From: Klebsormidium nitens
Lineage: Eukaryota; Plantae; Klebsormidiophyceae
Assembly: GCA_000708835.1 (NCBI GenBank)
Contig: DF237540.1
Span: forward strand, 1-54,997
Reading direction: 5' to 3'
Length of the DNA stretch: 54,997 bases
In this document: positions 2,775 through 54,950 of the stretch, in pieces
How positions within the stretch are numbered: position 1 is the first letter of the stretch
How the letters are laid out: every line of letters begins with the position of its first letter
The notes under the pieces: model-generated
What the model was told of the DNA's origin: nothing
The model's input: the letters and a program-made list of their open reading frames with translations, nothing else
Database searches by the model: none
Made by a program: the position numbers and the translations under genes

Positions 2775-3554
2775 TTGCACGATAGATCAAGCAAGTCTTA
2801 GCGCAGGTTCTCAATGAGATATTGAGTTCCTTTGCCCAGTTACGTTACGAATGCGGAGAGCTAACTTCTCTCCGCGCGAAGCCTTTCGACTTGTATCTAC
2901 TAACGGTCGGATTTCTGCCTATCGATCTACGGTACTCTAATACTGAGTAAGCATCGTGCGGCTCTCCGGAGTCGCACGTGGTCACTAACGACTCCCGGTG
3001 CTAAACCCTGAAGGACGGAGACTCCGCATTCTGCAAGTCGAACTTGTACCGCGCCGCGGCTTAGCGCGCACACTGTCCCTGCAGCAGCAAGTGTCTGCAT
3101 GCCACGTGTCACAATCTTACACGCGCGCAACCCTGACCAGTGGGACTTCCGCAGAGGGCGGGAGTATTCAGAGAGCACACTGCAGCTCTTAGGTGACGTC
3201 AAGCCTGACCTGAGTCTGACATGAAATCGGATTCGTGTGCCACTGCGCACTCTCAGAAAATGCTCGGGAAGTCGGGACTTTTGACACAGATAGACAACTT
3301 ACGGCTACCGCAGACTACGAATATTTATGCCAGTGCACAATATCGAACTTTTACGCGCTCGGTGAAATTCAGGTACCATCGTCAGGGGCTAGTTTAAAAA
3401 CGCCAGGGTAGTCTAGGTTTACGGGGAGTCCCGGGGGGGCCGCCGCAGTTGACAGCTACCTAAGGCTGCAACCCCCGGTCGAGGTCTCCCGTAGACTCCG
3501 GGACCGAACTACTGAGTGCACTGTACTATCTCGCGCAGACTTGGATGAAATGCT

Positions 3555-4376
3555 ATGACCTCGACAAAAGACCCCCGGAACTTACCGGCTGAGTATGCGC
3601 GCCGGTGGGTCGAAGCCGACCCCCAAATCGAAGAGCCGGAGTACCCAAACCCCGGCCTGCAAGGGGTTAACCTGAGGGGCATCAGCCGGATCTACCCAAT
3701 CCCGGACGGAGAGCCGGAGTGGGGCTACGAAGCACACCCTGACGGAGGCCTGGACGAAGTACCCTTGTGGCGCGAGGGCAACCGGGAGCGGCTGTACTGG
3801 CTCATCGACTTCATCAGCATGGAGGGGCCCAGCAAGTACCCTGCCGTGTGGGAGTGGGAGGAGCGACGCCTGCAGTACCGGCGTGACTGGCTGCAGCGCA
3901 TGATTCTGGAGTGCCGCAACGAACCCATGTTGGCGGGCTTCAGCACTCTTCCCCGGAGGCGGGACGAGTTAGCGCAGATAGACTCCCTGTTCATGATGCA
4001 CGCGGCCTACGCAAGGGACCTCCTGAAGGAAGATGCCCTCCGGAGGCTAGACACCGAGGCGGTGGAGTTCCAGACGGCCGCCACCAACAACCGGCGCCTG
4101 GCCTACCCCTGGGAAGCGGCGCTGGGACCCCCGGTGGATGCCCCCGCGTTCAACTTCAACACCCGCACGGCCCGGCTGCTGGAAATGGAGCTAGGAGCAT
4201 TGGTGGGGCGGGCGCACTCACTGTCTGCGTTGCTGGCGCAAAGGGAGGTGCGGCGCTTCCATCAAGAGAGGACCAGGGAGCTGATCGCCAAGCACCGGAG
4301 GGGGCTGATAGCGGCGCGTGAACGAGATCTTCCAATCCCACAGCCACGAGCGGAGGCAAGAGCGGAGGGCGCTTGA
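3555..4376 (+). CDS. 273-aa intact ORF1 of the element, possible Gag-position protein, unknown family
   Basis: ATG-initiated, uninterrupted, GC3-rich, predicted helical and charged. Lies directly upstream of the MTase-RT region. No CCHC knuckle recognised. Confidence 0.55.
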   Translation: MTSTKDPRNLPAEYARRWVEADPQIEEPEYPNPGLQGVNLRGISRIYPIPDGEPEWGYEAHPDGGLDEVPLWREGNRERLYWLIDFISMEGPSKYPAVWEWEERRLQYRRDWLQRMILECRNEPMLAGFSTLPRRRDELAQIDSLFMMHAAYARDLLKEDALRRLDTEAVEFQTAATNNRRLAYPWEAALGPPVDAPAFNFNTRTARLLEMELGALVGRAHSLSALLAQREVRRFHQERTRELIAKHRRGLIAARERDLPIPQPRAEARAEGA

Positions 4377-4964
4377 GCGCGCCTGGGCCACGCAGGTCGA
4401 GCAGCTTACAACGCTGCCATCTGGACCGGACGCCCGGAGTCCTGAACCCACCGGGACCCGGCGAGGCGGCCCCCGGTAGGAGGGACCACCCTGGGCCGGG
4501 AGCATGGAGGGCTACCCAGCCAGGGACCACCGCCAGACTACTTACGACCACCTGGGGAGGCCGGACCTCCCACCGGGATGGGCGTGGCGCGGCCCGGACA
4601 GCAACGCCGTCTACCGTCCGGGAGCTGCACGACTTCCTCGAGATCCACCTCAGGACCGGGGAGGAGGCGCAAGCTGAGAGCCAGAACCGAGCTCACGTCG
4701 GCGACTTCCGGGGCGAAGACTACCCCCAAATGGCGGATAGTTTTGCTGCAGATGCAACACCAACGGCGGCAAGAGCCGCCCCCGGCACCGGCGGACGAGG
4801 ACGAGACGCGGCCGTCCCCAGTGCCGGACTTGGCGGACTTCCAAGAGTGGAGCCCGCCACGTGAACTGGGACGAGCTGCCCCAGGCGTTCATGGTCAATC
4901 ACCACTCTACACCGGAGAAGCAGTGCGTCGAGATATGTAAGCGGCTCTGTACCGGGAGGGGGAG

Positions 4965-6074
4965 ATGATTTGGGCCATCGACGAACACCACACCCGAATG
5001 TTCGGGGACGACAAGTGGCTGTGCGTGCTGCTGCTTTTTGGCGGCATTGGGGCGGAGCTGGAGGGGCTACTGAAGGCCGGAGTCAAGATCAGGAAGGTCC
5101 TGTATGTGGACAACGACCCGATCAGCCGGAGGGTTTTTGGACACCGGCTGAGGGCCCTCCACCACGCCTACCCAGAGCAGCTACCTGAGCTGACCTACCC
5201 TCCACCGCCGCACGGCGCTACCCTCGAACATCAGGGACATCGGCAAACTGGAGCTGGAGCGCCACATCGGGCGCGAGGCACGGCACCCAATCGACCTGGT
5301 GACCGTGTCTTCGCCATGCCAGGGCTTCTCCCGGGCCAATCGACAGGCCCGGGGATTGGAGGACCCCGCTCCACCCTCTACCTGGAGGCACTGCGCGTGC
5401 TGTCAACAATCTGACGCCTTCAACGCCCGTGGTCAATCGAACCGGGCTACATCTTCGAGATGGTGGACGCGAGCGACCACGCCAATCCGCCCGCCCGGTG
5501 GGGGTTCCAACAGATGGAGCTCATCAACGGAGGCTACGCAGACAGCGGCATCCGGCTTGACGCGGCAAAACTAGGGTCGCGGCAGCCCACCGGACCCGCG
5601 TGTTCTGGACGAACCTGGCGCGCGCATGTGACATCCAGGAGCGATACAACCAGTTCGAACGCGAGTGTGGGTCCGGCTGGACGCGCAGGACGCGCTAGAC
5701 AACTTCCGGACAGTACAAATGGCGGCCCAGGACGACCCCGCAATACGGGGTTACTACTGCGTCAACGTGAAGGGGGAGCCACTGCAGACCTTTCCCACTC
5801 TGGTGGCAACCCCGAGCTCCTACGCCTTCCGCTTTCAAGCCCCTGACCAACCGGGGCCGGGGTTGGTGTACGACCGCAGCGTCCGAGAGTGGCAGGAGCC
5901 CAACGCCGACGAGCGAGAGCGGATAATGGGGATGCTGCCGTGGTCAACCCGGGGCTACAACATACCGGAAGCAGAGCGCGCATGAGGCTCATCGGAAGCG
6001 CCATCAACGTTCGCGCCTACACCTGGCTGTGCACGGAGATCCGCCGCTGGCGGGTCATCAACAAGGACGAATGA
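4965..6074 (+). pseudogene. DNMT3/DRM-like DNA (cytosine-5) methyltransferase domain, frameshifted
   Basis: Motifs in canonical order across several frameshifts: I VLLLFGGIG (FGGIG 5037-5051); II KVLYVDND; IV IDLVTVSSPCQGFS (catalytic Cys codon 5317-5319); VI GYIFEMV; VIII AAHRTRVFWTNL (5582-5617, cf. DNMT3 AAHRARYFWGNL); IX ERERIMGM; X RLIGSAINV. Confidence 0.9.
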
Positions 6075-6649
6075 AGGCGCGCTGGCGGGGGCGCAACAAT
6101 CGCCCCCGGCGTGACGGGTGTTCCGACTCACCCTCAACAAAAGCCGCAAGTACCAAACCAGCTGGCGGACCGCCGGAGTGCTCAGCGTCCCGCAGCTGGG
6201 GGGGGGAAAGGACAGGGGACTAGAGATCCCAAAACGAAAATCCCTGCAAAGGCCGGAGAGCCCAGGGGAACCGCAGAGAAGCGAGAGGGAAGAAAGGGTG
6301 ACCAGCCCCAGGGGTTAACCGGAGAAAAGCCCGGGAAGGTCAACCAAGGAGGTGGGGCCCAAACGGCCTTAGGGCTAGGGCAGTCCGAAAGGGCCTTGCC
6401 CCCGGAGGGGGGCAAACCACTAACACCCGGTCAGGGTGATCAAGAGCAACGCTGGGAAACTGCCCCGGAGACAAACAGGGAGTCGGAGCCACGACGGGGA
6501 AGAGGGCTTAGAAGAGCTCCATTCCCTGGAAACAGGCGGAAGGCAGTTGGGACCGGAGCTTCAAGCAGCAGCTGTGGGGACAGCACCGGAGGAGAACGGC
6601 GCAAGCCAATCAGTGGGGCCAAGGGAGCTGAGAAACCCTTTGAGTGGGG

Positions 6650-7349
6650 AGACGACCAGATATGGCCGGGACTGACACGGGAGCAGAACACAGAGGCACG
6701 AGGGAAGTCCAGGAGGAGTTTCGGGACATCTTCGCGTGGTCCATCTACGACCTCAGCGACACCGCCATCGAGGGGGTGGAGTTCGAGGTGGACTTCAACG
6801 ACGACAAGCCCATCTGGTCCCCCAAGCGGCGCTACTCCCAGTACGAGAGGGACCTGCTGAAGGCGTACGTGGACTCAGAGGCTGGCCGCCAAGGTCATCG
6901 CGCCCAATTGAAGCTACCCCCGCGCGTCAAGGAGCCTTTCGCCGCCGCCACCGTCATGCCCCGCAAGAAGGACGCGGAGGGAGCGGCGGATCTGCGGCGA
7001 CTACCGGCCCCACAACGACAAGACCGTCCCTGACAAGTACCCGATGCTGATTGCGGACGAGCTGTTCGACGATCTGGGGGGGAGCGACTGCTTCTCCACG
7101 CTGGACCTTCGGATGGGGTACCACCAGATCCGGATCAGGAAAGGGGACCAGTGGAAGCTGGCCTTCTGGGGGCATGACGACCTGTACATGCCCATGCGCA
7201 CCCCCTTCGGGCCCAAGATGCTCTTTCAGCGTCTGATGGACCGCGTACTCCGGGGGCTACGGGCGACCTGGCGCGGGCATTCATCGACGACATCATCGTC
7301 CACGCCAAGGGATTCCGGGCCCACCTGGACGCCCTGCGCGGAGTCTTCA
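6650..7349 (+). pseudogene. Ty3/Gypsy reverse transcriptase, frameshifted and truncated
   Basis: EVQEEFRDIFAW...KPIWSPKRRYS...MPRKKD...RICGDYRPHNDKTVPDKYPM...FSTLDLRMGYHQIRI...KLAFW...PFG...FQRLMDRVL, and the YxDD-equivalent FIDD at 7280-7291. Confidence 0.92.
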
Positions 7350-9300
7350 TGTGACGATTGGGCTATGGTTAAGTCTAACCGCACAATCGCACAAGTGTTA
7401 ACCTTCGGGTTATGCCAGTTTGCCGACGTGTTGGCATGTGGCCATTATTGATGTGACATAATTAATTGTAATTATGCCACTAATGCTAAGATGTATGGTA
7501 GGGCAATCATTGTGTTTAAATCTGTTCAGTCCGTTCAGTTCTAAACAGTTCGTTAGTCAATGTCGGTTGCTGTCATGACCAGGATTGCTTGGCGTGGCGC
7601 ACTGTGCTCTACTATGCGGTTAGTAAGTAAGCTACCTCAACAGCTGGACGGAGGACTTAGAAATGATTGGATGCAGCCCTCGAGTGCGCTCGAGACTGCC
7701 CCTCCATGATTCAGGTCTTCACTGAATGCGAGCGAGGAACAGGGCTTGGTTCAACTTGCGGGGATCATTCGAAGTGCGAATTCCCAACCAGCAAGCAGAA
7801 CTGTCTTGAGCTGAAAGACAACATTTTTACAGAGCAAGCGCCTTCGTCCGAGTATGCCTGTGCACATCCATGGTTTCCGCACATGGCTGCCGTTAGTGTT
7901 TCGTAGTTATCCTGGGCCAGCGCTTCGCTTAAGCTGGCCAACCGTCACAACTGCACTGTAATGCGCGAGCCCACCCACGCTTACCCGTTCACGACCTGTA
8001 CCCTAATGGTATCGGAGTTATACTACTCCGAGTTAACCACCGCTAATGTAATTCCCCGATAGGTAGAGCGCTTATAGAGCTACCAGTGCATCAACAAGGA
8101 TCAGCAGGCAGCGGAAGATAGATGGAACTAACGCGTGGTGTGTCAGCCGGACAAGTGTAACACTAACGAGAGCGTCACACAAGGGAGTGTCCCATACCAC
8201 TCCAGCTAACCAGCCAGACTACTATCCCACTCAGTCCGACACGTAACGGATACAACACAAGATGAACTCACCACTGGGTCTGCATTGCATGAGTCATGGC
8301 GCGATATGCTGCAATTGTGGCCGGTACTGACTAAAGTCAGAACAAGGTGGATAAGCCCTCCGTGAGGGTACACAGTCAAAACGTCACAACGTCTTTTCGG
8401 CACAAAGGTTGCCGGGTGCCTGGTGACATATAGCTATACAATGCTGGCGGTGCCAGCCAAACTGCTACGGAGGCGAGGGCCTCGATACTACAAACGGAAA
8501 GCTAGAAGCAGAAGCTCTTACTATAAGAAACAAGGGACCCTAAGCGAAAAATGTCCAAGTTACTATAATGAGCTAGCGAATCGCGTCTCCTCGGAGGTCC
8601 TCAATCCCTAGCGGACTAACAAAGCACACAGGCTACCGTGAGTAGTCTAGAGTATCAACTGCTTAAGCCTCTATCGAAACGCGAAGTCCTCGGAGTCCCA
8701 CCGCCACTCACAGCTCGACACCTAGACTAATCCGGCTGTCCTGAATGATTGGTCATCGCAACCCCCGTGGGTATCGACGGTGCCGATCACTACACCTCGC
8801 TAATGGGCCTCATTATTGAACCGTAAATCTGAAGCCCACACACCCGAAATCCTAAGCTAAAACCCCTGCGTCGCGGCCCTGTCGCGGCCGCCACGTCGCT
8901 CCCTTCAATGCCCGCTAGCCCGCTCGCGCGCTGCTCCGTCACTAGTGGTCCTGCTCACTCCGGTGGGGGTTCCGCGGCAATACAGCAGTCTAACGTCGTA
9001 TTAGAATTTCAACAAATCCACTGGTGGAAATCAAAATCCGCCGCCCCGGTGGAGGTTTCAGCCAACATCCAGATTCCTAGAGTGAACTTTTTAACCGCGA
9101 GTTTCGAGCTGCGGCGGGCCGCGGTCCTTATGAAATCCGAACTTTCACCTATCGAAACTTCAAATTTGACTCGGAACCGCAGCCAGCTTATCCACCGTCG
9201 GATCGCGAATCTGACGGCCCATCGACCAGCTCGGTATCGAACCACATCGATCTGAAAATGGCGTGGTTGCGTTGTGTAATTTAATTTTGTCATTTACATG
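7350..9300. repeat. probable non-coding TE or LTR-like sequence interrupting the RT
   Basis: Abrupt compositional switch at 7350 starting TGTGACG. The inverse CGTCACA occurs at 7943, 8173 and 8382, but none is flanked by a matching target-site duplication. No convincing ORF. Confidence 0.3.
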
Positions 9301-48829: not shown

Positions 48830-51800
48830 AGCTGGATGTGGAGAACTATAGCCTACTGGAAATCGAAGATTAGATTTCTACTGACTCCCCAAGACCTATT
48901 CGGATGGAGTTGAAGATCTTGTAGCGCACCCCGCTCAATCAAAGAAACTGATGTCCATCATCGAGCTGAACGTTGAAGATTGAGGCGTGCAAGATGAAGT
49001 CGGGTCACTACCATCCGTGACCAGGTATGCACATGGGTCGGGCAAAGCCTCGGATTTGTATAGGGACCTGGTCGTCACCAGTGTCAGATCAAGCCGGGCG
49101 AGTTGGCGTGGAGCCTGCTTGCGGGATTGCCCACTGAAACGTTTAGTATACACTAAAAACAATCCAAGAAGCTGGCAGAGAGCGCCATAAGCTTGGTGGA
49201 TATGATTCTACCAAAGTTTGAGGGATTGCCCGAGGAAAAGGGCGGCAGTGGGTCGTAGGCTCCGCTGTGGCCTATGCATGGTCGGGCGGAAAGGCCAAGC
49301 AAGTAGAAAGGCCACGGCAAGGATAAAAGCCGGGGCAAGCGGCTGAGTTCGGTCGCATTGCCCGGAAGTGTTGCAAGCCGGACTTAAGCGTGAGCACATG
49401 CCGGAGCAAAAGAAGGGAGAGAAACCTTCCAAGGGTCTTCAGCGTCGACTGAAGGGGTGTCTGTATCAACGAGTGGCTTTTCGATTCGTGGACTCTCAAA
49501 ACCTAACCGGGAACAAGAGCTTATTTGAGACCCTCAGAACTTTTTTGCGGGGAGTGGCCGAGAAGTCACGTTTGGGGACAAGGGAACCCTATGGGCAAAG
49601 GGGAGCGGCTCCGTCGAGCTGCGGTGTGCGACACCAACGGCGAAAGTTTGGTCGCCGTCTGCAAAACGTGACGTATGTCTCGAGGGTGGCGGCGAATAAT
49701 TATAATTTCGGTACTTGCAAGGCAACCGAAGTCGCCTCGGTGGTGTTCAAGGAGAACGGCAACTGCGAGCTTGGAATTGACAAGGATTCGTCCTTATTGC
49801 TCAGAAAGTGAATAGATCTACCGTACGTGGTCAACCGGGCTCAAATGGACACGTGCTACTTGTGGAGCCGAAAACGGCGGAGTTATGGCACCGACGGTTG
49901 GGACACGCCAGGTACGAAAATCGGCGAAACTTGGTATATGGCGATCTCGTGGAACTTGGTCGGGAAGAAACTTGAACGCGTTTCGGGCGCCTATACCCTT
50001 GGTGTGCGAGCGGCCCTGCACAATGGGAAAGCAAACTAAGCTTCTCAGCCCAAGTTCCCGGAATCCGACTCGACTGAGCATGGAGCCTCTCGAGCTAGTC
50101 CACATGGATGTTCAATGGGCCAATGCGGGTAGCCTCAGTAGGGGGTAGCCGGTTCTTCGCCACGTTCTTGGACAACTACAGCAAACTTTTGGTTCACACG
50201 CAACCTAGGGTGGGTTTCGGTCCGTACAAATCCGCGATCTCGTCAGTTTTCGTGACGAATTTGCGACAAAATCGCAACGCCGGGGTACCGGCGCCGATAC
50301 TGATCAGTGCGGAATATTTTAGAAACAGAGTCCCGAATTCGGATCGAGAATCCATATAAACTTTGGTAAGGACGGTGACCGTTGAACTTCCGCGAATCCA
50401 AGAGGTACGGTTTCGCCGTGCTGCGGACCCAGTCTGTCGCGCGACACATTTCAAAATTTCAGGTCTTGATTTGAAGTACGATCGGACGACCGCGTGCCGC
50501 TACAACGTACCCCGATACCCCAGCAAGTCCGTGGGACGGTAGAAGAAGGAAGGATGAGTGTCATGAAAAGCTTCTCCTTGAAGCTCACCACAGCGCCACC
50601 ATGGCAGCCAACTTTGGCAATATATAGGTGCACCTGCCGATATGCCACGACAAAAGGCCTTGAGGGGACTTCAAAGACATGCATTGACGCCATTCTAGAC
50701 TAGGTTTTATGGCTGCACCTTAGGCTTGTCTACAACATATAAAGCCTGACTGAGGCTTTGAGCCCCATTTTAAGTCTACATTTTGAGTGTAACTTAGTGT
50801 GACACTGATTCTACTAGTACAAACAATGTCTTAGACCTGGCGGGTCAGCCGACGCGATTGCCTTTCAGAACGTACCGTCATTCGCCGTTACTAAAATCGT
50901 CCAATTCATCGAGTCGGAAATTGACTCGGATCGAATTAGACTCGCGACACGATCGACACGGCTCGGAACCACCCTAGGTTGCTTGTGTTGTAGTCCCCTG
51001 AAGCAAAAAAGCGAGGTGGCCAATAGACGAAGGGGACAATAAACCGATTGGAATTGCAATTAAGGAAGAAGCTCAAGTCGACGGTGCAAACGGATCAGGG
51101 CAAGGTGAACGTCATCAAGGCCCTTGAAGACGTGTTCGGGGGCAAAGGGATGGTTCACGAGAGGACGCCCCCTACAATACCAACTCAATGGGTCGGCCGA
51201 GTAATCTGAACCAGGGTTTGAAGCAGAAAATTCAGACGATGCTCGAGGACTTGGGGTTGCCCAAAGAGTTGTGGGCGGAAGCTGTGATAACGGCCAACTA
51301 CACTCAGAACCGGACGTCCGTGAGCGCACATGGGAAAACGAGGGGAAAACTCCCTGGAAGACGTTCGTCGGTGTAAACGAAGCCTCAAATGAGAAGTTTT
51401 TGGCGGCCGAGCCTTCAGACACGTCCCTAAGCAGCGAAGGCGTAAGTTAGATCCGGGGAACGAGCAATGTGTGTTCATGGGGTACGAGCCGCGGGCTTGA
51501 AGGCGTGCATCTAGGCTTTGGGGCCGTGACGCGATATGGATTATCTCCAAGAACGTCATACTTGACGAGGGGATTGGGGGCGATGGGGTTGTCGAACTTG
51601 GCTCCAACCCCACGGACGGTCTTGAGACGGCGGAGGGTCTGTACGGCGCACAGGTTCAGACGGAAGCCCATGATAGATCCAAAGTTGATTCTCTGCGCAA
51701 GGACGACACGACCGCGCGCGCGCGACCGCTGCTGTCGCTTTCGCAAACGAGCCAAAATAAGGGGCAACTCTGAAAGCGTGCGCAAAGACAAGGCAGAGCC

Positions 51801-52499: not shown

Positions 52500-54950
52500 C
52501 TCCGAACCTTATCCTATTACAAACGAATCTTATCTCCATTCCCCGAGCATTTCTCCATCAAGCAACCGGGCTGAGTTAAGGGCATCATTCGCAAGCTCCT
52601 TCTACAACGCTATGCAAGACTTGGACGCCTACGCCACGTTCCCGTGAGCGTCCCGCTTGATCTTGTTAACCCACTTCATGGAAGCCGGCTTGACCCCAAT
52701 TTTGTGACTATCTCCCACGTTCCGTTTTCTAGGAGGGAACGCATCTCCTCGCCCATAAAGTTCCGCTAAACGTCACTCTTCTTTCCCTCTACAGCTTCCT
52801 AATATTTATGCGGTTGTTGATGCTCCCCTAACCCTAATCGATGCTTTGCTGCTTCAATGTCTGCCGCCAAGTTGGCGCGGAATTACCTCCCCGGTGCCCG
52901 CCTAGCGCTGGCGGGGCACCTCTGGGCAGCCGGTAGTTGAATCCCTTGGTCCACCTCCATCTCTTTCGACCGTATGCCTCTGCTTGGCGCTTTAAATTTG
53001 GAACTTCCCCGAATTGGCCGGCTTTTTATTTTGGCGCGCTGACCCGCTCCAATAAGGGCCCCTTTTTGATCCCTAGCGGATCTTGTTCGCCACCCTCCAC
53101 CGCCGTGGGCGATTCCTCCTCTAGATCGGAGCTAAGCTCAACAACCGCTTTGTTTGCTTTCTCGTCGAAATGGACGTCCTGGCGGATGATGAGCTTCCGG
53201 TCGCTTTCATGGGGCACCCGGTATGCCTTAAAGTCTGGCTCATACCCTACGAACACACCTCGCTCTGATCCGATCCACTTATGTCTTCGTTATTCTGGCA
53301 CGTGCGCAAACGTCCGCGCCCCACATGCCCGCAAGTGTACCACCGTCGGCTTTTTGCCGAAGAACGCCTCCCACGGGGTCACCCTGTGCGCGCTCACAGG
53401 GGCCCGGTTCCGGGTGTGGTTGGCCGTCTAGTATGGCCTCCACCCACAACTCCTTCGGCAGCCCCAATGGTTCTCGAGCATCGCCCGGACCTTCTCCTCC
53501 AACTGTGAATGAGCCGCTCTGCCGATCCGTTTTGCTCGGCCATGTACGAGGCGGTCTTTTTGTGCACCGTAACTTTGCCCACAAAGACGTCCTTGAGAGC
53601 TTTATTGACGTACTCTTTCCCCCGATCCGTCCGCACCATTTTTGAGCATCTTCCCCAATCGCAACTCCAGCCGGTTGATCACGTGCTCAGTCACCTTGGC
53701 TACTTCGCCCTTCTACTTTGCGGGGACCACAACCAAGAATTTGTTGTAGTCGTCTGAAACCGTGGCAAAGTACCGGCTGCCTCGCATCATAGGCACCAGC
53801 ATTGGCCCACCGACGTCCGTGTGGACTAGCTCGAGAGGCTCCGAAATCACGAACTCCGACCGCGTGTGTGAGTTGGACTCCGAAAAAACTTGCTGCGTTT
53901 GCTTCCCCATGATGCGGGATCACACACCTAGCTTTTAAATCATATGAGCGCTCAAAACGCACTCGGCTTCACCTCAACGCCCTCGACGAGATTCCTTGCA
54001 CCATCTTCGCCAAGTTCTCAAACGAAGCGTGTCCCATCCGGCGGTGCCACAACTCCGCCGTCTCGGCTTCTCTCATGAGGAAACACTTGTCCGTCTTTGC
54101 CCGGTCAAACATGTAGATCTCCTTCCCTTCTCGAGCTTCAAGGACTACTTCCCCGTAGCCGCAAGCTCACAACTATTCTGCTTGAACGACACCGTCGCGA
54201 CTTCGGTCAAGCCTTGCTCACCGAGATCAAGTTTGCCGCCATGACATACGTCACGATTTGCAGAGTGAACAGACTTTCTCCGGTCGGTATTGCACACCGC
54301 AGCTCGACCGTGCCGCCCCCCTCTGCCCACCAGGTTCCCTTGTCCGCGAACGTGGACTCTCGGCCATTCCCCCCAAAGATATCGAGAGTCCTTAATAGGT
54401 TCTTGGCCCCGGTCAGGTGTTGAAAGCTACCCAAATCGACGTGCCTATAGTTTGGCAGCTACCCCTTCAATCTCGCTAAAGGCCACTCCTTTGATTTTTC
54501 TTCGACCTCTTTGCTCCGATTTGAGCTCCCGCATATTCGGCTTCTCTTCCCGGCAATGTCACCCAACTCTCCGTAATTGTAGCACTCAGGGTATTGAACG
54601 AGCTCGAGGGTCCCGCAAGCACGCTCCAAGCCAACTCTTCCTGCTTCAATTCGAAACCGGTAGCTGTCAAGTCCCAAAATAAGTCCTTTGCTCGAGCCAC
54701 GTACACGGTCACAGGCTCAGCCGACTTCATTTTGAAAGAATGCGACTCGTGGCTAAACTGCAACTTCGTTGCGTGGGATTTGCTCTTGTAGGTTGTCTCA
54801 AGAAGATCCCAAGCCTCCTTTGCGGTTTTGCACGCCTGACTCCTCCCCCAATGATGGTCATCAAAGTTTAGCCCAATGATGGACACCGCTTTCGTTGATT
54901 CAGATGCGTGCTCCTTGGGATCCGTTACTCGTCCCAGCTACTCCAATCAA
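52500..54950 (-). mobile_element. decayed Ty1/Copia retrotransposon (gag-PR-integrase-start of RT)
   Basis: Gag KTAKEAWDLLETTY...ELAWSVLAG, protease SFQHLTGAKNL, WHRRMGH, EPLELVHTDV, VRTDRGKEY...QNGSAERL (DDE intact), FVGYEPDFKAYR...RQDVHFDE, and RT start TWEIV...MKWVNKIKRDAHGNV (~52630-52720). Boundaries approximate. Confidence 0.9.

What the first reader, a model, noticed from the sequence alone, without database searches (positions are those of the whole stretch)
4965..7349. Gypsy retrotransposon carrying its own DNMT3-like cytosine methyltransferase upstream of RT
Seen: all main C5-MTase motifs in order (FGGIG; SSPCQGFS with the catalytic Cys intact; EMV; AAHRTRVFWTNL; ERERIMG; LIGSAINV), on the same strand and ~600 nt upstream of an unmistakable Ty3/Gypsy RT. 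The frame upstream (track ORF 4578-4940) continues into the MTase across a single TAA, so it was probably part of a polyprotein. Known: motif VIII closely matches DNMT3 (AAHRARYFWGNL) in linear, non-permuted order, unlike plant DRM. Retrotransposon-borne DNMTs have been reported in dinoflagellates and in the charophyte Klebsormidium (de Mendoza et al. 2018), so the concept is not new. Inference: this may be a further lineage or independent capture in which the element methylates its own cDNA or insertions. Motif VI reads EMV rather than ENV, which is either decay or a family signature.
Basis: partly seen in the sequence, partly recalled or inferred. Interest (0 to 1): 0.85.

Follow-up and report, generated by a model that had tools for sequence, protein, structure and literature searches.

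The report
Dead algal retrotransposon carrying DNMT3 methyltransferase
This is a broken copy, in the alga Klebsormidium nitens, of an already described kind of jumping gene that carries its own DNA-methylating enzyme; its intact relatives show that a conserved stop codon, likely read through by ribosomes, separates that enzyme from the reverse transcriptase, and that related elements occur widely in green algae and in a liverwort.

Summary
In detail: all six C5-methyltransferase motifs lie in linear order at 5037-6011, about 630 nt before a Gypsy RT, and the family is DNMT3-like by profile and by fold. It is not a new capture. The window is Klebsormidium nitens, the species in which Gypsy-Dnmt3 elements were described in 2018. 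This copy is dead: five frameshifts and a stop in the methyltransferase, a broken RT cut off at 7349, and no Gag or protease found. EMV is a subfamily signature, not decay. Relatives add two things I did not find in print. (1) ORF1 (Gag-protease-DNMT) ends at a conserved stop, and RT-RNaseH-integrase-PHD follows in frame without an early AUG. The stop is followed by GC hairpins here and in L001, and by the textbook UAG-CAA-UCA readthrough signal in distant L003. The 2018 authors put DNMT in the RT ORF. Readthrough would make DNMT as abundant as Gag in the particle. (2) Related DNMT-carrying Gypsy elements, most with a PHD finger, carry Closterium, Marchantia, Tetraselmis, Scenedesmus, Haematococcus and Chlamydomonas labels, in two domain orders. 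Readthrough and cDNA methylation are untested.

The parts
3549..4614 (+). Remnant of ORF1 middle region (predicted helical domain of unknown family between protease and DNMT in relatives); frameshift near 4312
   Evidence: 69% identity over 319 residues to P0004; P0007 and P0009 carry an aspartic protease upstream of the same region; no Pfam match
4504..5012 (+). ORF1 linker into the DNMT, broken by four frameshifts and the TAA at 4938-4940
   Evidence: 52% identity to P0006
5013..6071 (+). DNMT3-like C5-methyltransferase domain, motifs I-IV-VI-VIII-IX-X in linear order, catalytic Cys codon intact; five frameshifts and one internal stop (5412)
6072..6074 (+). Conserved ORF1 stop (TGA), in frame with the downstream linker; candidate readthrough site
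   Evidence: 10 of 12 clade rows end here, plus 4 shorter proteins; TAG in L001; TGA in loose ends of runs X1, X6, X7
6086..6133 (+). Two predicted hairpins 3' of the stop (6086-6108 and 6116-6133); stems identical in L001, loops differ
   Evidence: z -1.7 here, -3.7 in L001; no compensatory change seen; no Rfam match
6186..6207 (+). 22-nt G-run motif identical in L001 within an otherwise diverged linker; role unknown
   Evidence: a Gly-Gly-Gly motif sits at a similar place in more distant RT ORFs
6075..6703 (+). Linker between DNMT and RT; the frame after the stop has 0 stops in 188 codons, the other two frames have 5 each
   Evidence: part of it matches P0187 in another frame, so compensating shifts are likely
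6704..7348 (+). Ty3/Gypsy reverse transcriptase, N-terminal part to just past the FIDD motif; four frameshifts inside it, one more at its start (about 6695), and short deletions; RNase H, integrase and PHD missing
   Evidence: nearest rows P0187 and K. nitens P0193
7350..7949 (.). High-copy 600-bp TG...CA LTR-like repeat that cuts off the RT; inverted ends match at 11 of 12 bases; no target-site duplication
   Evidence: depth about 1800-2400 against 20-80 on the element in X1/X2, and loose ends at 7350 in all four runs

Best explanation
The region is a decayed, truncated copy of a Klebsormidium nitens Gypsy retrotransposon whose intact relatives encode Gag-protease-DNMT3-like methyltransferase, then an in-frame stop, then RT-RNaseH-integrase-PHD; the stop is likely read through, so the methyltransferase would be made in Gag-like amounts and would likely methylate the new cDNA in the particle. 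Shown: domain order in relatives, DNMT3 kinship, purifying selection, the conserved stop, and that this copy is broken. Inferred: most ribosomes stop after DNMT and a minority read through, helped by 3' hairpins (window, L001) or a UAG-CAA-UCA signal (L003). Inferred: the protease releases the DNMT inside the virus-like particle, where it methylates cDNA before integration. Inferred: the PHD finger on integrase reads histone tails to choose insertion sites. My odds by step: dead DNMT3-Gypsy copy 0.97; readthrough 0.65; catalytic methylation of the element's own cDNA 0.5.
For: Host label K. nitens on the window's own protein. All 35 PDB sequences matched by the family profile are DNMT3A/B/C or DRM-type, with a colinear alignment to DNMT3A; all listed fold hits of the P0004 model are DNMT3. 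dN/dS window vs L001: 0.20 for DNMT (251 codons, dS near saturation) and 0.13 for RT (180 codons). Catalytic Cys kept in 154 of 158 domain rows. L001: DNMT-TAG, then a 1194-codon in-frame ORF whose first in-frame AUG lies inside RT; only that frame is open across the linker (simulated chance 0.087). L003 (its family's RT ORF about 46% identical to L001's): 1162-codon Gag-PR-DNMT ORF, TAG CAA TCA, then an in-frame 1047-codon RT-RH-INT-PHD ORF with first AUG at codon 117. This equals the type I motif UAG-CAA-UYA (PMC3159437), and the next 132 nt fold at z -4.4. Split gene pairs in K. nitens: GAQ89453/GAQ89454 and KFL_013780020/013780010. None of the 7 intact RT proteins in the window's RT clade is fused to DNMT, and no fused protein above 46% RT identity appeared among proteins over 2090 aa (weak evidence by the tool's own note).
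Against: Only three junctions were read in full, plus loose ends from three runs. The window's hairpins are not significant alone (z -1.7; longer windows z -0.8 and -1.05 for window and L001), and the stems are invariant, so there is no covariation. The window lacks CAR-YYA. Truly fused single-ORF relatives exist at 46% RT identity or less (P0020, P0314 and others), so the stop is not universal. The 2018 authors state DNMT shares the ORF with RT and RNase H, and their K. nitens domain gave no methylation in yeast, which they call inconclusive. No CpG depletion: o/e 0.96 in the window DNMT, 0.90 and 0.80 in L001, 0.93 in a host gene region.
Confidence: 0.68

Rival explanations
1. [quoted passage not shown]
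For: [quoted passage not shown]
Against: The linker frame is open and in phase in L001 and L003; L003 has a single stop with the exact type I motif and no spacer between the ORFs; L001 has no GT in the last 40 nt before its stop.
Confidence: 0.13
2. RT is made by re-initiation or internal initiation near the stop, as a separate protein.
For: The window has an AUG overlapping the stop (ATGA at 6071-6074), and the K. nitens gene model P0193 starts with the matching peptide.
Against: No AUG in any frame for 460 nt after the stop in L001; loose ends of other copies have no AUG there; predicted starts of sister RT ORFs are scattered. A separately made RT would need another route into the particle (general retroelement knowledge).
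Confidence: 0.1
3. The element is as described, but the DNMT domain of this subfamily is not an active enzyme; it binds nucleic acid or a host partner, or acts on RNA.
For: Motif VI reads EMV in the whole clade; the 2018 yeast test of a K. nitens domain was negative but inconclusive; no CpG depletion.
Against: Cys of motif IV, Glu of motif VI and both Arg of motif VIII are kept; motif VI position 2 varies in the wider lineage; dN/dS 0.20; related Symbiodinium DIRS Dnmt3 domains methylate CG in yeast.
Confidence: 0.2
4. A host DNMT3 pseudogene landed by chance beside an unrelated RT, or the breaks are assembly errors in an intact element.
For: The copy is heavily broken; there is an N gap at 1900-2774 upstream.
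Against: Same layout in L001 and L003 and in two K. nitens gene pairs; DNMT and RT trees both separate the two domain orders. Contigs identical to the window bridge the breaks near 5212 and 5668 (they may come from the source strain). No break lies in a run longer than 4 bases.
Confidence: 0.02

Closest known systems
KnitGypsy-Dnmt3 (de Mendoza et al. 2018, PMC5890265)
   Same: Same species, Gypsy RT, intronless non-rearranged Dnmt3-related domain, purifying selection near or below 0.2.
   Different: Described with DNMT in the same ORF as RT and RNase H; here a conserved in-frame stop lies between them. This copy is dead and lacks the DIRS-like repeat arrangement. I could not see their Fig. 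4c or supplementary figures, so they may have drawn another subfamily or this one.
SymbioDIRS-Dnmt3 and SymbioLINE-Dnmt (PMC5890265); EpiLTRs (bioRxiv 2026.05.21.726589)
   Same: Retrotransposon-borne C5-methyltransferases; proposed self-methylation of cDNA.
   Different: Other retrotransposon classes or other DNMT clades (EpiLTR DNMT is sister to DNMT4 and sits with DAM and a chromodomain).
Gag-Pol stop readthrough in MuLV, Tj1/Tosmo and Tca2; type I UAG-CAA-UYA signal (PMC3159437; bioRxiv 2022.12.06.519325)
   Same: Single in-frame stop that lowers the amount of RT and integrase; 3' motif or 3' structure.
   Different: In the fission-yeast elements the stop lies between Gag and protease; here it lies after protease and DNMT, putting both on the abundant side. 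Not demonstrated here.
Ogre (Tat clade) Gypsy elements (PMC6317226)
   Same: Gag-protease and RT-RH-INT in two ORFs.
   Different: Ogre uses a partly spliced intron; the REXdb survey text has no mention of PHD, methyltransferase or Klebsormidium.

Membership tests
KnitGypsy-Dnmt3 | Host is Klebsormidium nitens | tested here: met
   Window protein P0001 labelled KFL_005910020 K. nitens, contig length 54997
KnitGypsy-Dnmt3 | Dnmt3-related domain without DRM-type rearrangement | tested here: met
   Motif order; PDB profile hits all DNMT3/DRM-type, colinear with DNMT3A; fold hits. No host DNMT3 was in my trees.
KnitGypsy-Dnmt3 | Intronless DNMT with conserved catalytic residues | tested here: met
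   Colinear with single-ORF relatives; Cys, Glu and Arg-x-Arg codons present although the frame is broken
KnitGypsy-Dnmt3 | Gypsy-type RT, RNase H and DDE integrase | tested here: met
   RT in the window; RNase H, integrase and PHD only in relatives such as L001 and P0193
KnitGypsy-Dnmt3 | DNMT in the same ORF as RT and RNase H | tested here: not met
   Conserved stop after DNMT in window, L001 and clade proteins. One polyprotein only if the stop is read through, so I file it as a variant, not a strict member.
KnitGypsy-Dnmt3 | Purifying selection on DNMT (Ka/Ks < 0.2) | tested here: met
   0.196 for one pair, window vs L001, dS 1.74; borderline and a single pair
KnitGypsy-Dnmt3 | DIRS-like arrangement of terminal repeats | tested here: inconclusive
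   Copy truncated at both ends; no such repeats in the window; L001 incomplete; L003 assembles as a circle, which collapses repeats
Active C5-DNA methyltransferase | Methyl transfer to cytosine in DNA | not testable with these tools
   Needs an assay; the 2018 yeast test was negative and called inconclusive
Programmed stop readthrough element | Conserved in-frame stop with open downstream frame and no own start | tested here: met
   L001 and L003; window consistent but decayed
Programmed stop readthrough element | 3' stimulatory motif or structure | tested here: inconclusive
   Type I motif met in L003; in window and L001 only predicted hairpins without covariation
Programmed stop readthrough element | Measured readthrough product | not testable with these tools
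   Needs reporter, ribosome profiling or proteomics

The most novel reading that the evidence does not exclude
This is one member of an ancient Gypsy lineage spread across green plants (chlorophytes, charophytes, liverworts) that pairs a DNMT3 'writer' with a PHD 'reader' on its integrase, has moved the DNMT between two positions in the polyprotein, and in several branches uses stop readthrough placed after the DNMT to load its particles with methyltransferase at Gag-like levels. The K. nitens case would then be no lineage-specific capture.
Probability: 0.5. Interest if true: 0.68.

Novelty: new variant of a known kind. Interest (0 to 1): 0.45.

Why it matters
Why retrotransposons keep a DNA methyltransferase is still open. 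If the stop is read through, the element sets the dose of its DNMT far above that of RT and integrase, which fits methylation of cDNA inside the particle and gives a simple reporter test. Intact relatives, including Scenedesmus- and Haematococcus-labelled ones, offer enzymes to assay where the one K. nitens domain tested gave nothing. The wide distribution would move the capture from one alga to early green-plant history. The window's copy itself is only a fossil.

Tried and rejected
No whole genome is held for this window, so no genome-wide copy count, LTR search or multi-copy dN/dS. No RNA holder listed; this says nothing on expression. Earlier-findings index: nothing by sequence or words. 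Viral contigs: only a phage methyltransferase at 25% (L002) and no RT relative; L002 served only as a long-branch outgroup. Rfam: 0 matches at 5900-6400. The weak Pfam APT match on an RT fragment (E=0.007, below cut-off) was taken as chance. RNAalifold on two junction sequences was misaligned and is not used as evidence. tblastn with six relatives found no Gag or protease anywhere in the window. The substitution table across the junction was cut (30 rows hidden), so the lack of listed changes at the stop and second hairpin is only a hint. Tree limits: DNMT tree by FastTree on 159 rows, leaving out domains under 250 profile positions (Tetraselmis rows among them); RT tree was a quick search on 47 rows that I picked; no host DNMT3 or DRM rows, so direction and number of captures are not tested. 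'Fused' labels on eukaryotic gene models (Closterium, Marchantia, Tetraselmis) may hide stops bridged by predicted introns. Paired ORFs on unnamed contigs (P0009/P0188, P0011/P0189) rest only on equal contig lengths. Iyer et al. 2011 is not held and may already mention algal DNMT-RT fusions.

Full report
Observation. Aligned with frameshifts allowed to the intact relative P0004, the region 4855-6071 is 73% identical over 403 residues; the methyltransferase has five frameshifts and one internal stop. The RT runs from about 6704 to 7348, is also broken, and ends where a high-copy 600-bp TG...CA repeat begins. Upstream, homology to the same polyprotein reaches back to 3594 through several more frameshifts, so the 'single TAA' detail is wrong although the polyprotein conclusion is right. 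No Gag or protease was found in the window. Contigs identical to the window bridge two of the breaks and no break lies in a long homopolymer, so the decay is probably real.

Host. The protein search listed the window's own gene model as KFL_005910020 of Klebsormidium nitens, on a contig of 54997 bases. This is the species in which de Mendoza et al. described KnitGypsy-Dnmt3 (PMC5890265; I read parts 1-5 of 7 of the text, and passages of the peer-review file; figures and the supplementary-figure PDF could not be seen, and Fig. 4c bears on the ORF question). The idea of a further independent capture therefore falls.

What the domain is. A profile of 12 relatives matched 35 PDB sequences, all DNMT3A/B/C or DRM-type, and aligned colinearly with DNMT3A. 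A model of P0004 (mean pLDDT 61 overall, mostly 70-94 in the domain) hit only DNMT3 structures among the rows listed. EMV is present in 14 of 14 close proteins checked and in L001; in the wider set it occurs in 12 of 42 rows with DNMT before RT and is not among the six commonest forms in the 85 rows of the other order. The catalytic Cys is kept in 154 of 158 rows. Window against L001 gives dN/dS 0.20 for DNMT and 0.13 for RT, one pair only.

Anatomy from relatives. Close relatives carry an aspartic protease upstream of the DNMT in the same ORF (P0007, P0008, P0009, P0012), and more distant ones also a Gag zinc knuckle (P0019, P0020). In the DNMT tree the window sits in a clade of 12 rows (support 100) nearest to K. 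nitens P0003; 10 of the 12 end at the homologous place just after motif X, and the other two end slightly earlier. In L001, the one close relative with DNA, the DNMT ends in TAG and is followed in frame by 1194 codons of linker-RT-RNaseH-integrase-PHD; the first in-frame AUG is inside RT, and there is no AUG in any frame for 460 nt. Window and L001 share two hairpin stems just after the stop and a 22-nt G-run motif further on; loose ends of further copies in runs X1, X6 and X7 again show TGA followed by the first stem arm or part of it. Two other K. nitens loci are annotated as a DNMT gene next to a separate RT gene. A distant element, L003, found as a eukaryote-like contig in a bacterial bin and grouping by RT with a Marchantia protein, has Gag-PR-DNMT, then TAG CAA TCA, then RT-RH-INT-PHD in frame. 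That is the type I readthrough motif UAG-CAA-UYA (PMC3159437, passages); my estimate of chance for CAR-YYA is about 1 in 500. Nine of 15 listed members of that RT cluster are 1043-1044 aa and start with M or V at the same place, as expected if a stop lies just upstream in all of them.

Mechanism. I commit to readthrough: most ribosomes make Gag-PR-DNMT and stop, and a minority go on into RT and integrase. In-frame stops serve this way in MuLV and fission-yeast elements, where the yeast elements have the stop between Gag and protease (PMC5009743 and bioRxiv 2022.12.06.519325, passages). Here the DNMT is on the abundant side, so particles would hold many copies, which fits methylation of the new cDNA, the role proposed in 2018. 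The PHD finger would steer integration by reading histones (inference from the domain family). Against: three junctions only, no covariation, weak folding scores for the window, fused single-ORF relatives at 46% RT identity or less, no CpG depletion, and a negative though inconclusive yeast assay in 2018. Rivals are Ogre-type splicing (PMC6317226, passages), re-initiation (the window has an AUG overlapping its stop, L001 does not), and a non-catalytic domain.

Wider family. The profile found 254 cluster representatives at E <= 1e-30 and 2560 at E <= 0.001, the latter surely including ordinary methyltransferases. Among 160 proteins scanned (the 14 first hits, the new ones among the best 150, and P0160), 29 read RT-RH-DNMT-INT-PHD in full and many more in part, while 17 read PR-DNMT. 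The two orders separate in both trees. Names given by sources: DNMT before RT in Klebsormidium, Closterium, Marchantia polymorpha and Tetraselmis striata; DNMT between RNase H and integrase in Scenedesmus sp., Haematococcus lacustris and, degenerate, Chlamydomonas reinhardtii. Most hits are unnamed, and 30 proteins were looked up. Later papers still cite the Gypsy-DNMT3 case for streptophytes only (PMC12344493 passages and one table row listing 0 DNMT3 for Chlamydomonas; bioRxiv 2026.05.21.726589 passages). Ten library searches turned up no report of the stop, the PHD finger or the chlorophyte elements; the library lacks most subscription papers, and Iyer 2011 was not held.

Verdict. The finding is real but its headline is known, in this very species, and the copy is a fossil. 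Because one described feature (DNMT and RT in one ORF) is not met, I file it as a variant of KnitGypsy-Dnmt3. The likely readthrough site and the green-plant-wide spread are the parts worth following. Interest 0.45.

Noticed in passing
window 7350-7949 and about 8006-8017: 600-bp high-copy TG...CA LTR-like repeat with 11/12 inverted ends and no target-site duplication; about 55 nt downstream lies a stretch resembling a tRNA-iMet primer site (resemblance recalled, not from a call).
   Followed up: partly
window 2775-3440: Another repeat (depth 100-400 in X1, X2, X5 over most of it) between the N gap and the element; its relation to the element is unknown.
   Followed up: no
window 6186-6207; L001 about 947-968: G-run motif identical at nucleotide level between window and L001, and read as AAGGG or ELGGG in different RT ORFs, which suggests an RNA- or DNA-level signal (slippage site or internal purine tract).
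   Followed up: partly
run X5 laid on window 2800-9200: 264 of 362 changed places are C>T or G>A, against 123 of 425 in X1; library type is not on record, so either a converted library or deamination among copies.
   Followed up: no
L003 and L004 (contigs CADCWO010000201, CADCWO010000148); L005 (JBAVTE010000030): Eukaryotic Gypsy elements sit in bacterial genome bins (labelled Synechococcales and Minisyncoccia), most likely contamination; L005 has the RT-RH-DNMT-INT-PHD order in a 2152-codon ORF.
   Followed up: partly
P0347 (CHLRE_09g398141v5), P0325, P0050/P0176: Chlamydomonas, Haematococcus and Scenedesmus proteins with RT-RH-DNMT-INT-PHD; many chlorophyte-type members have EC instead of PC in motif IV.
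   Followed up: partly
P0145, P0157: Other layouts: DNMT upstream of protease in a Gypsy polyprotein (P0145), and a DNMT at the N-terminus of a 1230-aa protein with an RT-like tail not matched by my Gypsy domains (P0157).
   Followed up: no
window 54476-54937 (-); inverted pair 49544-49638 / 54283-54377: Copia-type gag fragment (PF14223, E=4e-18) and a 95-nt inverted repeat pair 4.6 kb apart.
   Followed up: no
window 12130-44800: Ordinary intron-containing host genes: NF-Y/histone-fold (about 12130), Hsp70-family (about 16200), RRM protein (about 26900), GT2 glycosyltransferase (about 35000), UBA-domain protein (about 42500).
   Followed up: no
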